Assembly: GCA_964016885.1 (NCBI GenBank)
Contig: OZ024755.1
Span: 1,922,001 to 1,986,000, forward strand
Direction of reading: 5' to 3'
Source: Eledone cirrhosa
Lineage: Eukaryota
Length of the DNA stretch: 64,000 nucleotides
Each line of letters begins with the position of its first letter. Within the stretch, counting starts at the first letter, position 1. Below the pieces are notes generated by a model. The model was not told the origin of the DNA, made no database searches, and saw nothing but the letters and a program-made list of their open reading frames with translations. The position numbers and the translations under genes were made by a program. Of the stretch, positions 6,730 to 61,451 are shown piece after piece.

Positions 6730-8064
6730 ACTACACCACACCACACTATACTACACCACCACTACACCACACCACACTATACTACACCACCACTACACCA
6801 CACCACACTACACCACACTACACCACCACTACCCCACACCACACTATACCACACCACATCACACCACACCACACCATACTACACCACCACTACACCACAC
6901 CACACAACACCACACTATACCACACTACACCACACCACACTACACTACACCACACCACACCACACTACACCACACCACACTATACCACACCACATCACAT
7001 CACACCACACGACACCATACTACACCACCACTACACCACACAACACCACACTATACCACACTACACCACACCACACTACACCACACCACACTATACCACA
7101 CCACATCACATCACACTACACCACACCATACTACACCACCACTACACCACACCACACTACACCACACTACACCACACTACACCACACCACACCACACTAC
7201 ACCACACCACACTATACCACACGACATCACATCACACCACACCACACCATACTACACCACCACTACACCACACCACACTACACCACACTACACCACACTA
7301 CACCACACCACACCACACCACACCACACCACACTATACCACACCACATCACATCACACCACACCACACCATACTACACCACCACTACACCACACCACACT
7401 ACACCACACTACACCACACTACACCACACCACACCACACTACACCACACCACACTATACCACACCACACTATACCACACGACATCACATCACACCACACC
7501 ACACCATACTACACCACCACTACACCACACCACACCACACTACACCACACCACACTATACCACACGACATCACATCACACCACACCACACCATACTACAC
7601 CACCACTACACCACACCACACTACACCACACTACACCACCACTACAACACACCACACAACACCACACTATACCACACTACACCACACCACACTACACCAC
7701 ACCACACTATAACACACCACATCACATCACACCACACCACACCATACTACACCAACACTACACCACACCACACTACACCACACTACACCACACCACACCA
7801 CATCACACCACACTACACGACCACTACAACACACCACACAACACCACACTATACCACACTACACCACACCACACTACACCACACCACACTATACCACACC
7901 ACATCACATCACACCACACAACACCATACTACACCACCACTACACCACACCACACTACACCACACTACACCACCACTACACCACACCACACTATACCACA
8001 CCAAATCACACCACGCCACACCATACTACACCACCACTACACCACACCACACTACACCACACCA
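6730..8064 (+). repeat. Degenerate pentamer satellite (CACAC/CACTA/CACCA)
   Basis: Directly visible; source of the spurious His/Thr-rich ORF. Confidence 0.93.
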
Positions 8065-26508: not shown

Positions 26509-27391
26509 CTGTGGAGGAGAGTGGTTTTGACGTGTCATATGGACAATCAACTACATGTAGAGTGGAACTAAAGTTGACAGGGAAACAGACATAGGCAATG
26601 AAAACATCATATTGATCTGTTCTCCTGGATTGCTTCGGAAATGTAACCTTGCATAAGATGATGTAGCATGATAAACCATCACGTAACCATGAGCACCATT
26701 GAAATACAACACCACGTTGACGTGTGGCAGTAGCTAAACAAAACTATCGTTTAAATAATTATTGCTGACATGGAAGGAAATAAACAGAAAATGTCTCAAT
26801 AAAAGTGTTCAACTTAAAATAAAGCTTTAATTTACCTACTTATAAATAGTAAAATCCAAGCTTTTAACGTTTTAAATTCACGTTGGAAAACATGAAGTTG
26901 TTCCAGCGGCCATTTTAATTTTTCCAAACAGAACTATCCTAATTACGCATGCGCAAATTATTTATTTGAAGTCGCAATGAATTTTCAATCGTGAGTTCGA
27001 TTCTTAGACCGGGCTTGGTTGGTTTAATAACCGGATCTTTATTGTTAAAGTTCTTTCTTCCCACATTCTGTGACTAATTTACTTTGTGTGTCTCTTATAG
27101 ATTTTTCTTGTTTAGGGAGCAGTTGTTGACTGGAACTGTGCTTGCACTGTTGGATAAGGCTACAGTTTCTACTTTTGATTGTGGCTTTGTACCTATGTGA
27201 AAAAACTGGACCAGCATTACTGCAGCAGTGGGTTAGATGTTGGCCTCCATTTCTGTTACTGCATCAAATCCCTGGAAGATGAGTGAAGAGACACTCATGC
27301 TGCAGACATGGGAATACCAGCAGATTGTAGGATTCCAGGTTACGCATGTTTGAGTGTTTGATTTAGTATTTGGTGGTGGTAATGTTATTGT

Positions 27392-28545
27392 GTTTACCAT
27401 ACCTACAAATCGGTGCAGAGCCTCACTTGTGGTGGAGACTGGAAAGGATTAGATAGCTTTCACTTTTTCTGATAGGGCTGTAGTCCCAGTACCTGTGGTT
27501 CTATATCTGAGAAAGTCGATTCTTTAACACCAAAGATACACTTGGTAGGGTTAACTACCAAACTGTATTGTTCAAGTCTATCAAAAAGAGTCACTAGGTA
27601 CTTCTTGTGTAATTCTACATTTTGACTTGCAATATGGCTGTCATCTAGGTTATATATACCTAGATGACATCCATATTGTCATCTAGGTATATATAACCTA
27701 GATGACAATATGGATGTCATCTAGGTATATATAACCTAGATGACATCCATATTGTCATCTAGGTATATATAACCTAGATGACAATATGGATGTCATCTAG
27801 GTATATATAACCTAGATGACATCCATATTGTCATCTAGGTATATATAACCTAGATGACATCCATATTGTCATCTAGGTTATATATACCGAGATGACATCC
27901 ATATTGTCATCTAGGTATATATAACCTAGATGACATCCATATTGTCATCTAGGTATATATAACCTAGATGACATCCATATTGTCATCTAGGTATATATAA
28001 CCTAGATGACAATATGGATGTCATCTAGGTATATATAACCTAGATGACAATATGGATGTCATCTAGGTATATATATAAAACAACAAAGTCTAGACCTATG
28101 CAGACGGTGTCCAAATGTTGAAAAGATTGAAAGGTGTGCACAGAAATACGGTGGGAGTGATAACGGCAGTTTTAGGAATATCGTCATCTTGTTTGATGAT
28201 ACCCTTGGACGATATCAACTTTTGAAAAAATTGATCACATGGTTAACTGAGCTGAGAAGTCCCGTATATGCGGAAGGGGGTAGTGCTTGTGTTGAGACAG
28301 TGATAATACTGCAAAGTTGCCAACCTCCATTAGGTTTTGGTGCCATATGTAGAGGGGATAACCAGAGACTGATTGATGAACGATACACAAAGCTTCCATA
28401 TTGTCAAACTCGGCCCTTGTAATGATGAGCGTGGCTGTGTACTGGAGGGCTGGTAGTTGGAATGTGATGTTTTGTGGTGAGTTGTGGGTTTGGAGAATGT
28501 CAGTGTAGTGAGATTCAGATGGTTCCAAAAGAGGTCTGAGAGAAA
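27392..28545 (-). mobile_element. Degenerate Ty3/gypsy LTR-retrotransposon reverse transcriptase
   Basis: Across frameshifts: KHHIPTTSPPVH, AEFDNMEAL, SPLHMAPKPNGGW, YPLPHIRDFSAQL, IFSKVDIVQGYHQ, DDIPKTAVITP, YLDDIHI, ASQNVELHKKYLVTLFDRLEQYSLVVNPTKCIFGV, EKVKAI, LHRFVGMVN. Confidence 0.9.
27631..28067. repeat. 38-bp palindromic tandem array (11.5 units) inside the gypsy RT
   Basis: gtcatctagg-9nt-cctagatgac-9nt units starting at 27640+38k. Confidence 0.97.
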
Positions 28546-29849
28546 TATGCTATGACAGCTGCCATATTGCAGTTTCGGTGGTTTTATTCGCGCCAGTCAC
28601 CAATCCGGTACTTTGTCAAACCCGCGAAATTTATATGGTCTCCCGACCAATCCCACATCAAGTGGAACAAAACCATCTAACCCATGCTAACGTGGAAGAT
28701 GGACATTAAAGATGATATATACACTCTACAACATTATACACACACACCTCCATAATCATTTACAAAGAATCTTTATCATGTATAAAAATATTTCAGGTGA
28801 AAGCAAAGAAAAACAAACAAACAAAAGGTTTTATCATTTTCATTATTTTTTTTTCAAAATTTTATTTCTTCATAATTATTTTATTTTATTTTTTCCAACT
28901 TTCTTCCCTCCCTACCCTTCTCTCCATTCTCTTTGGCCCTTCCCAATTCGCAAAACATTTAATTATTATTATTAATAATATTATTATTATTATTTTTTTT
29001 TAGATTCCATGTTCATTTTCATTATATTTATTTATATATATATTTTTTTGAGATATAAAAAATTATATAGTTTTGTTGTTTAATGTGTGCTTATTATATG
29101 TGGTGGTGGTGGTGGTTCTTGTTTTCAGTTTTTTAAAAATTGTTTCTTCTTTATAAAGAGGGCAAAGGAAGGTAACCACACACGCATTGTACACACACGT
29201 GTGTGTGTTTGTGTATTTATGTATATATATGTATCTTGTTCACACACACACACACACATATATACATACATATATATATATATATACATACATTTGTATA
29301 AATATATACATATGTATACATATATACATACACAGTGGCACTCACACACATATGTACATTATACAACTATATATATATATATATACATACATGCATATAT
29401 ATATGTAAGCATACATACACGTATATAATAGCACTGTGACAAGATATTTTGGTGATTGGGGGAGTGGAGGGTTGATTTTTTTCTCTAAGTTTGTAGTTGG
29501 TGGTTGGACAGGTGGGTGATTCAATATATGTAATCCGGTAGCAGTAATAATAATAATAATAATAGTAATAATAATAATCAGAGGAAACAGGAGACATACA
29601 CACTATATCTATCTCTCTCACATTATGACAGACATGATAAGAAAATAAAAACTAAAAAATAATTATTTAAAAAAAATACACACGTTCTTACACATGCAAG
29701 CAAACACACATACACACACTTTGGTTTTCGAAAGATTTTGCAATATATAATTGGTTGCTAGGACTTGGTCCTACAATGGTTAATTTTAAGGTTTTTTGTT
29801 GCTCTTTCTTTTTCTTTGGTGGAGAAGAGGTTGGTTGGCAAATAGGACG

Positions 29850-58948: not shown

Positions 58949-61451
58949 TCCTCTTCCTGCTATATCAAGTGTTAACCTAATATATCCCTTCCATATACTG
59001 AACCGTTTGTGTTGTTATTTCTGTTTACCTTTTACATACATATATATACACATACTCCCATATATACAGTCATATTGATGAGTGTGCATATAAAATTCAT
59101 ATACCCCTACACACAAACATATTTATACATACATATACACCTACATACACATGTGCATAAAGAATTCATACATACCTACATACACATGTATATATAGAAT
59201 TCATACATACATATTTTTTTCACTTACACATATACCTACATATACACACACAATTTGTGAGTTATTTCATCCACATACACAGCTAGGTTTGACACTGGTT
59301 TATACTTACACACATACACATATAGATACATAGAGAGAGGCTGACAAAGACACACATTTATATAGACACAATGACGGTAGTCTGAAAACATCTTCAGTTT
59401 TTAATCAGCACTACTAAATATTCCAGACCATATTTATTCAATCTTTTCTTTGATTTCATGTTTCCACTCATTAATTATTTTTATTTACTTAAAAGCAAAT
59501 TCCAAGTTTTCACAATATATATGATAGGAAGATAAAAGTAATAGGAAAATATTTAAACAATATCCAAGAACAACGACAACAACAATGACAACAACAACCT
59601 AGACACAGTCAAGGATATATAAGATAAAAAAATTAATAAAATGAGCTGAAATAAAGACTTTTTGAAATTTCTGAAGATAATGATATCTTCGTGTGGGTGT
59701 CTGCAGCCAGATTTTTCCACCAACAAGGGAACCTCTATGTAGTTATTTGACCTACAGTTGGATGCCCTTCCCAATGCTAACCACATTACAGTTCTATATT
59801 CCTGAAATTGTTAAACAATTGCTTTATTAGACTGAGTATTTAACTAACTGCTAATAAACACAGGTTTAACCCTTTAGCATTCACATTACTCTATATTTAC
59901 TATTGTATTTTTGCAGTTAACGCTTTATCTCACATAATATCGAATCTACGAGATTTTGTTGATGTTATTTATGTTGAAAACAATACCTTAACATCAGTAT
60001 GAGTGGCTGGCTATGGCTGGTTTGAACAGAAAGAGGTGATAGAATTCTGGCTGGATACGACAGGTTTAAATCCACTGCTTGTGTTTTGTTATGATTTTAG
60101 GTAGAATGCTTTAGCTAGTTTCAGTTCACTTAACAAACAAACATAAGTATGAAACAATTTATGAATGTTACTGGAGAGATAGATCCACTGCTTCCCTACC
60201 TTGGAGAAGATTTATTTCCCAGTCATTTTTATGCCATGAAACCTTGAAAGGAAGAGCAGCAGGGTACAGGGAAAAGACATGTTCTACAGCTCAGTTAAGA
60301 TGACACTGGATTTTAAAAATATGGTTTATTTGATGAGCAGATCTTCAGAAGTTGTGATCTAGTAAGGTGAGATAAAACTACTGAAGAGATAAACAGAGTT
60401 GCAAGAGAATTAGATAAGATACTTTGTAGTAGTATCTGTTCTGGCTATTTGGATTCTGAGTTCAAATACTGTTGTCAGAGATAAATAAGACAAAGGAACG
60501 AAAGACTGGGAATTTCTACATAAATCAGTGAAGAGTTGCGAAAAGATTCAATAAACCAACAACATAAGCAATATTTGAACTCCGCCATTTTTTCTAACAT
60601 TCTACAGTTTTTACTATCTTTTCTGGTTATAGAGAGAACAACAATAACAACAACCCACTCAACTGTTAATACAGGAGGAACTGGCAGCGGGGATCAGATG
60701 AGATAAATAATAAAAAATGAGACAGCTCAAACAATACCAACAAGAACATCAACACCAATACCATCAACACCAACATCACCACCAACATCAACAATAACAA
60801 TACCATCAACATCAACAACAACACCAACAACATTATCGAAGTGAAACATCATTCTTTCTAGGCAAGCCACTTAAAAAAGTGTGAGAGGAGAAAGAATACC
60901 ATTACATTAACCTTGGTTGACCCAACAGTTGACCGACATTATTGAAAGGAAGGCAGGAGGTCAATGTTGGCATTAACAAAGAATTGTCCTGGACAAGTTT
61001 GTTTGGACATTAAAAACTCAAGTGTCAGTCTAAATATAGCAAGCTGCTTTTAGATAATTCATATTTATAAATGGGCTGTGTGAGTGTATGTGTGTACATC
61101 TATCTGTGCATAGATGTATGTGTGTATGGATGTGTGTGTGTGTGTGTGTGTGTGTGTACATCTATCTGTGCATAGATGTGTGTAAGTGTGTGCGTACATC
61201 TATCAGTACATGGATGTGTGTGCATATCTGTCTGTGTAAGCGTGTGTGTAGCTTGGTCGAGACAATTGCTACCTTTTATAGAGAATGTCTTCTCTACAAA
61301 AGGAGGAGTAAAAACCTTCTTAGATCTACCTACAGTTAAAGGAGGATGAAGAACTGGATTGGTAGAATTGGTATATTAAATATATCAATTGGTAGATTAA
61401 ATATATTAATAGAAAATAATAAAAAAGACAATCTTTTGGAGTGAAACTTAC

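What the first reader, a model, noticed from the sequence alone, without database searches (positions are those of the whole stretch)
27631..28067. Array of invertible cassettes built from the YLDD active-site codons of a gypsy reverse transcriptase
Seen: a 12-bp arm (tgtcatctaggt) alternates in orientation every 19 bp, separated by two kinds of 7-bp core (atatata/tatatat and atatgga/tccatat) that flip independently. Spacer orientations run +,-,+,-,+,-,-,-,-,-,+,+ and the AT core is flipped in units 1 and 7. The unit read as TAC CTA GAT GAC ATC CAT ATT encodes YLDDIHI. The array sits exactly between the upstream RT motifs (DDIPKTAVITP) and the downstream ASQNVELHKKYL. It is almost mutation-free although the element is decayed. 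Inference: repeated short-range template switching (inverted triplication followed by expansion). The arm-core-arm geometry also mimics tyrosine-recombinase sites, so ongoing inversion is conceivable, but no recombinase is visible here.
Basis: partly seen in the sequence, partly recalled or inferred. Interest (0 to 1): 0.75.

Follow-up and report, generated by a model that had tools for sequence, protein, structure and literature searches.

The report
Zig-zag minisatellite inside dead retrotransposon
A 12-base piece of a dead jumping gene has been copied 23 times in alternating directions, with the short spacers between the copies facing either way; it likely grew from a few DNA-copying errors in which the polymerase briefly reversed, and nothing points to a recombinase-driven switch or to any function.

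Summary
The array is real and described correctly: 23 arms of 12 bp alternate in direction every 19 bp, with two kinds of 7-bp core in both orientations. The exact cassette occurs only here in the 3-Gb genome. Word depths in three runs of one sample match about 10-11 cassettes on one haplotype; these may be the assembly's own reads. Both flanks map to the same ~20 bp around the YLDD codons of sister gypsy copies, so the array grew in place. A sister copy carries a one-step 13-bp fold-back nearby. Independent flipping is not shown: six events with three inverted insertions, or eleven with one later inversion, both give the pattern. A recombinase is unlikely: no PF00589 match, and 7-bp cores are too short to loop. 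Best reading: a very small inverted triplication that grew into a minisatellite by template switching and slippage. The mutation types are known; the all-alternating array was the only one in 844 kb sampled. The scan noted related flipped satellite monomers elsewhere in this genome.

The parts
27639..28068 (.). 23 copies of a 12-bp arm in strictly alternating orientation, 19-bp spacing (38-bp period); arm derived from the YLDD codons
   Evidence: 22 of 23 exact
27651..28037 (.). 11 internal AT cores (7 bp), 9 in the flank's orientation and 2 reversed (27651-27657 and 27879-27885)
27670..28056 (.). 11 internal 7-bp spacers derived from the codons after YLDD; 4 in the flank's orientation, 7 reversed
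27632..27638 (-). terminal spacer continuous with the downstream RT sequence; one substitution (27638) not shared by the internal copies; bracketed by a natural 2-bp inverted repeat (CA/TG) that is a likely fold-back point
28069..28075 (-). terminal AT core, part of a short self-complementary TA run at the upstream junction
27889..27889 (.). the only mismatch inside the array; not shown in the contigs of runs X1-X3, so either a dropped bubble or an assembly error
27463..27650 (-). RT piece downstream of the array (…ASQNVELHKKYL…)
   Evidence: Pfam RVT_1 E=2.6e-4, below the curated cut-off (piece 27463-27678); PDB Ty3-G Gag-Pol E=0.0055 (piece 27463-27648)
28048..28185 (-). RT piece upstream of the array (…DDIPKTAVITP… GLDFV…YLDD), spread over more than one frame
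27150..28562 (-). approximate extent of the decayed gypsy pol fragment, with many stops and frameshifts on both sides of the array

Best explanation
The array is a single-locus 38-bp minisatellite built from 12 bp of a dead gypsy reverse-transcriptase gene, and it likely arose by DNA-copying errors with no function. Step 1 (inferred): a fold-back or template switch between a 2-bp inverted repeat on one side and a TA run on the other made a very small inverted triplication (arm, reversed arm, arm). Step 2 (inferred): this gave both 7-bp loops perfect 12-bp inverted arms, predicted to form hairpins of about -10.5 kcal/mol. Step 3 (inferred): further switches between inverted arms inserted reversed blocks, and slippage between same-facing arms duplicated units. 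A handful of such events (about six, three of them inverted insertions) would lengthen the array and scramble the core orientations together. Shown: the anatomy, the single location, the origin of arm and spacer, read support for about 10-11 cassettes, and that at least one inversion followed the seed.
For: Both flanks map to one overlapping stretch (query 14-92 and 72-151) of a sister copy, so the array grew in place. In 13 of 17 family loci where the motif could be located, each holds a single arm; 12 of the 13 have no inverted repeat longer than 7 bp nearby. The 13th, L123, carries a perfect 13-bp fold-back with an 8-nt loop just after YLDD, a candidate one-step stage of the same process. 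Perfect hairpins with arms of 12 bp or more are common here: 35 against 1 mirror control in 844 kb, some from repeat families. Undoing direct duplications alone stops at 12 cores, not at a 4-core seed, and a seed holds only one orientation of each internal core, so a later inversion is required. Shortest history found: 6 events with inverted insertions, against 9 with single-core flips and 11 with one inversion; all are upper bounds from beam search or a hand-built path. Uniformity is 1 mismatch in 430 array bases, against 86% identity of the closest long match to the element. Literature: small inverted triplications with flanking duplications from 7 bp (PMC13334657); recurrent spacer flips between perfect arms longer than 9 bp in yeast (PMC8604942).
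Against: The order of cores is not diagnostic: random strings need 5 (28 of 100) or 6 (72 of 100) events under the same model, so repeated switching rests on parsimony only. In the human-chimp data of PMC5453318, event types where switch point 4 precedes point 1 were not observed, and a triplication needs that order. So the plain four-point model does not cover the seed; a flap fold-back (SIT) or a two-step route is needed. The seed junctions have only 1-2 bp of complementarity, against a 6-bp median in SITs. No second allele or individual was available.
Confidence: 0.6

Rival explanations
1. Same seed, but only one later inversion; ordinary slippage and unequal exchange at the arms then shuffled the two existing orientations. 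The cores do not keep flipping.
For: An explicit 11-event path with a single post-seed inversion reproduces the order. AT cores lean to the flank's orientation, 9 of 11 (binomial p=0.065), as expected if inversions were few. Head-to-tail arrays are abundant in this window (188 TRF rows).
Against: It needs 11 events against 6. Perfect 12-bp arms around 7-nt loops are the class in which recurrent spacer flips are reported (PMC8604942).
Confidence: 0.27
2. Tyrosine-recombinase-type sites that are actively inverted.
For: Arm-core-arm 12-7-12 geometry resembles loxP/FRT/dif sites (recalled).
Against: No PF00589 match at E<=0.001 in the genome (6 candidates scored, 14 of 14 controls positive). The site is unique and is explained letter for letter by RT codons. 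A short central segment cannot loop (PMC8755829). Nine same-facing AT-core sites persist unexcised. The flank contig runs unbranched through the first cassette in three runs, although contigs drop rare variants.
Confidence: 0.02
3. Assembly or library hairpin artefact.
For: Runs X1-X3 are one sample and may be the assembly's own data; their library is not on record. No independent individual covers the site.
Against: Three runs give the same graph: two 31-nt cassette nodes at about 9.8x and 10.0x flank depth, and four core-arm-core contexts at 4.8, 5.0, 5.1 and 5.7x against 5.0, 4.6, 4.4 and 5.8 expected from the assembly. Random chimeras would not recur at that depth.
Confidence: 0.03
4. The array was made by the element's own reverse transcriptase (template jumping during cDNA synthesis) before insertion.
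For: It lies inside an LTR-retrotransposon pol gene; RTs switch templates (recalled).
Against: The array has 1 mismatch in 430 bases while the flanks carry many stops and frameshifts, so it is much younger than the insertion or has been homogenised since. No sister copy examined shares it.
Confidence: 0.04
5. The seed is an excision footprint of a hAT-type DNA transposon (hairpin opening makes inverted duplications; recalled).
For: A sister copy has an insertion flanked by a duplicated GTCTAGAC about 20 bp from the motif, so such elements hit this region.
Against: That 8-mer is single and intact in the window (28088-28095). Both junctions keep 7-nt loops of native neighbouring sequence, typical of fold-back rather than of a sealed hairpin (inference).
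Confidence: 0.04

Closest known systems
Small inverted triplications (SIT, DUP/IN/DUP; PMC13334657, abstract and passages seen)
   Same: Direct-inverted-direct copies with short spacers and complementary junctions; breakpoints reported near microsatellites; duplications from 7 bp upward.
   Different: SIT medians are 148/160/148 bp with 30-bp spacers and 6-bp junctions, and they are single events. Here the arm is 12 bp, loops are 7 bp, junctions 1-2 bp, and the unit has gone on to 23 arms.
Short-range template-switch mutations and spacer inversion between inverted repeats (PMC5453318, PMC8604942, PMC8755829; passages seen)
   Same: Spacers reverse-complemented exactly between perfect arms; recurrent flips reported for arms longer than 9 bp.
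   Different: Those are single hairpins compared between genomes. Here both orientations sit side by side in one array. The triplication order (point 4 before point 1) was not observed in PMC5453318.
Bacterial BIMEs (PMC2817692, passages seen)
   Same: Regularly spaced repeats in alternating orientation; module of two inverted repeats and two intervening segments, joined head to tail.
   Different: BIMEs use palindromic GT(A/G)G-headed REPs, occur at many loci and go with RAYT transposases. This arm is non-palindromic, single-locus, derived from coding DNA, in an animal-type genome. Likeness of architecture only.
Minisatellites derived from transposable elements (PMC6947457, search listing only)
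   Same: Tandem repeat born from part of a retroelement.
   Different: The unit here is itself an out-and-back pair with reversible cores, not a head-to-tail copy of the element's sequence.
Short fold-back inverted duplications at DNA breaks (PMC11724301, abstract and outline seen)
   Same: 5-34-bp templated inverted duplications through microhomology; fits the size of the seed and of the L123 hairpin.
   Different: Reported at induced breaks in yeast, as single events.

Membership tests
Small inverted triplication (SIT) | DUP/INV/DUP of local sequence with no loss of flanks | tested here: met
   Flanks overlap at query 72-92 of a sister copy; arms alternate. The 3-arm state itself is inferred, not observed.
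Small inverted triplication (SIT) | Reverse-complementary junction microhomology (about 6 bp typical) | tested here: inconclusive
   2 bp (CA/TG) on one side and a TA run on the other.
Small inverted triplication (SIT) | Dependence on FEN1/Rad27 and Okazaki junctions | not testable with these tools
   Needs genetics.
Template-switch spacer inversion | Spacer exactly reverse-complemented between perfect arms longer than 9 bp | tested here: met
   All 22 internal cores are exact in one of two orientations.
Template-switch spacer inversion | Recurrent independent flips between alleles | tested here: inconclusive
   One haplotype only; the order is explained by 1 or 3 later inversions.
Tyrosine-recombinase inversion system | Cognate recombinase in the genome | tested here: not met
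   No PF00589 match; divergent or intron-split enzymes could be missed.
Tyrosine-recombinase inversion system | Invertible segment lies between two sites and is long enough to loop | tested here: not met
   The reversed units are the 7-bp cores themselves; looping argument in PMC8755829.
BIME/REP | Alternating repeats with two linker types | tested here: met
BIME/REP | Palindromic GT(A/G)G-headed repeat, dispersed at many loci, RAYT-associated | tested here: not met
   Non-palindromic arm, single locus. RAYT was not searched.
Ty3/gypsy reverse transcriptase (host element) | RVT_1 similarity with YxDD and Ty3-type best match | tested here: met
   RVT_1 E=2.6e-4 in 1 of 6 pieces, below the curated cut-off; top PDB matches are an RT/RNase H (4OL8) and Ty3-G Gag-Pol (7Q5B); YLDD in sister copies.
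Ty3/gypsy reverse transcriptase (host element) | LTRs, gag and integrase order | not tested
   Only a ~1.4-kb pol fragment was examined.

The most novel reading that the evidence does not exclude
A self-propagating 'zig-zag' minisatellite class: one tiny inverted triplication makes every loop a perfect hairpin, so each later template switch both lengthens the array and creates new substrate. The array would grow mainly by iterated inverted copying rather than slippage, be hypervariable in length and core order between individuals, and act as a binary record of template-switch events.
Probability: 0.25. Interest if true: 0.55.

Novelty: new variant of a known kind. Interest (0 to 1): 0.3.

Why it matters
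It is an unusually clean case of minisatellite birth with a known source: the arm and spacer can be read off sister retrotransposon copies, and a likely first-step hairpin is visible in another copy. If alleles differ by in-place core reversals, the locus would give a direct rate for short-range template switching in an animal germline and show that inverted triplications can seed expanding repeats. It has no sign of function and is not a switch.

Tried and rejected
1) The large arrays on C2 that matched the query at about 70% are unrelated head-to-tail repeats of 18 bp and 38 bp; rejected as a family. 2) Event-count models wrongly let flank-bound cores be copied by slippage; redone strictly, and only the strict counts are used (the binomial tests come). 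3) Event count against random strings gave no discrimination. 4) RAD runs X4 and X5 from other individuals gave no usable coverage of the array: no test. 6) The mismatch at 27889 was meant as an anchor for four cores but appeared in no listed contig. 7) No plasmid match. 8) Five of six RT pieces had no RT hit in Pfam. 9) Four of 17 family loci were dropped because the motif was not located. 10) Literature searches for an all-alternating minisatellite found no description; the library lacks most subscription papers, so this does not show it is unpublished. One search (BIME inversion terms) returned nothing. PMC9435742 passages added little. No supplements were read. 11) The background survey covers 844 kb of 3.0 Gb and is not random (window neighbourhood, contig C15, contig starts).

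Full report
Observation. A 12-bp arm occurs 23 times from 27639 to 28068, alternating in direction every 19 bp; 22 of 23 copies are exact. TRF reports a 38-bp period with 11.5 copies. The 11 internal AT cores face the flank's way in 9 cases and the other way in units 1 and 7. The pattern arm-N7-inverted arm has 10 matches per strand in the 3.0-Gb genome, all inside this array, and none for the reversed control. The large C2 arrays that matched at about 70% are unrelated head-to-tail repeats.

Read support. Three runs of one sample hold the locus. Their library is not on record and they may be the assembly's own data, so they are not independent. In each run one contig runs without a mismatch from the left flank through the first cassette (27190-27668 in X1 and X3, 27164-27668 in X2), at depth 10.7, 8.8 and 6.4. 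Those depths match one of two contigs that differ at 8 of 130 bases at 26900-27029, so the array-bearing stretch appears on one haplotype only (inference). Inside the array each run gives the same small graph: two 31-nt cassette nodes and four 48-nt core-arm-core contexts. Summed over runs and divided by flank depth, the nodes are 9.8x and 10.0x and the contexts 4.8, 5.0, 5.1 and 5.7x. The assembly predicts 10, 10 and 5.0, 4.6, 4.4, 5.8 (11, 11 and 5.0, 5.0, 5.4, 6.0 if the one mismatch is an error). The array size is thus supported. The mismatch at 27889 was not shown by any listed contig. Words of 31 letters cannot span three cores, so the full order and cell-to-cell variation remain untested. 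RAD runs from two other individuals gave no usable coverage.

Origin of the unit. The flanks are a decayed gypsy pol fragment on the minus strand, with stops and frameshifts on both sides. One of six pieces hits RVT_1 (E=2.6e-4, under the curated cut-off). The best solved-structure matches of the downstream piece are an RT/RNase H and Ty3-G Gag-Pol. A 151-bp query from a sister copy maps the window's upstream flank to positions 14-92 and its downstream flank to 72-151. The two flanks therefore share the arm and spacer, and nothing was lost. One sister copy reads YLDDIHIASQNV. In 13 of 17 family loci where the motif was located there is a single arm, and 12 of the 13 have no inverted repeat over 7 bp nearby. 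The array has 1 mismatch in 430 bases, while the closest long match to the element is 86% identical, so the expansion is far younger than the element's decay or has been homogenised since.

Mechanism. The spacer is bracketed by a natural 2-bp inverted repeat and the other side of the arm is a TA run. A fold-back at these points would give arm, reversed arm, arm (inferred). Each cassette is then predicted to fold as a 12-bp stem with a 7-nt loop, -10.4 to -10.8 kcal/mol. A sister copy, L123, carries a perfect 13-bp inverted repeat with an 8-nt loop just after YLDD that the other 12 copies examined lack; I read it as an independent one-step fold-back. Such hairpins are common in this genome: 35 against 1 mirror control in 79 sequences totalling 844 kb, several from repeat families. 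Long alternating arrays are not common: in the same sample the only other rows were simple-sequence or short-palindrome repeats.

How many flips? I coded the cores as orientations and searched for short histories using only exchanges at existing arms. Undoing direct duplications alone stops at 12 cores, and a seed holds one orientation of each internal core, so at least one inversion followed the seed. The shortest history found has 6 events, three of them inverted insertions; single-core flips plus slippage need 9; one later inversion plus slippage needs 11. These are upper bounds. Random strings need 5 or 6 events (28 and 72 of 100), so the order carries no signature. AT cores lean to the flank's orientation (2 of 11 reversed, p=0.065) and spacers do not (p=0.55). 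Repeated switching is favoured by parsimony only; independent flipping of each core is not shown.

Recombinase. PF00589 found no match in the genome (6 candidates scored; 14 of 14 controls positive). PMC8755829 argues that a central segment under 33 bp cannot loop for site-specific recombination (passage). From established chemistry (recalled), a tyrosine recombinase inverts DNA between two sites and excises between same-facing ones, and nine same-facing cassettes persist here. The 12-7-12 shape follows from the RT codons.

Comparison with known systems. The seed resembles small inverted triplications (PMC13334657; abstract and passages) at their smallest end, with weaker junction complementarity. 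Core reversal resembles spacer inversion between perfect arms over 9 bp, which recurs in yeast (PMC8604942; passages). Against a plain four-point switch, PMC5453318 did not observe events in which point 4 precedes point 1 (passages), which a triplication needs. The layout resembles bacterial BIMEs (PMC2817692; passages) in architecture only. My searches found no description of an all-alternating minisatellite with reversible cores, but the library is incomplete. Earlier AI notes on this genome describe single flipped monomers in satellites; I did not test them.

Verdict. A real, single-locus, probably functionless zig-zag minisatellite, best explained by known replication errors acting several times (confidence 0.6; 0.27 for one later inversion plus slippage). 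New variant of a known kind; interest 0.3.

Noticed in passing
L123:1582-1615 (G000:C2, near 302.13 Mb): Sister gypsy copy with a perfect 13-bp inverted repeat and 8-nt loop just after YLDD, absent from the 12 other copies examined; looks like a single fold-back insertion.
   Followed up: partly
L132/L138 (G000:C2, near 77.67 Mb): A ~300-bp insertion flanked by a duplicated 8-bp GTCTAGAC about 20 bp upstream of YLDD; looks like a hAT-type MITE (label recalled).
   Followed up: partly
L130/L139 (G000:C28, near 106.58 Mb): A ~970-bp insertion at nearly the same position of the RT in another copy, starting TGTAG; possibly an LTR-like element.
   Followed up: no
L052:9023-9125, L083:90-124, L108:8831-8875, L099:4741-4800, L118:4561-4607 and 6918-6955, L070:3575-3612, L068:625-662, L058:1413-1449: One dispersed repeat family shows many different perfect hairpins at overlapping positions, as if it were a recurrent fold-back substrate or a rearranging palindromic element.
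   Followed up: no
L082:5004-5117 and L058:6826-6998: Two hairpins share the same long arms but have different loops that look reversed relative to each other.
   Followed up: no
L031-L034 (G000:C2:408.67-408.70 Mb): Several blocks of one 18-bp head-to-tail repeat (0.5-3.1 kb each) recur over about 28 kb, separated by other sequence; in L030 a block follows a LINE-like 3' end.
   Followed up: partly
window:27413-27520: Depth equals one haplotype in all three runs, so the gypsy fragment may be absent or very divergent on the other chromosome; two contigs differ at 8 of 130 bases at 26900-27029.
   Followed up: partly
window:55435-55470 and 61096-61203: A lone perfect 12-bp hairpin, and a duplicated 8-bp hairpin inside CA/TG repeats.
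   Followed up: no
L051:9363-9681: Perfect 153-bp inverted repeat with a 13-nt loop, close to the window.
   Followed up: no
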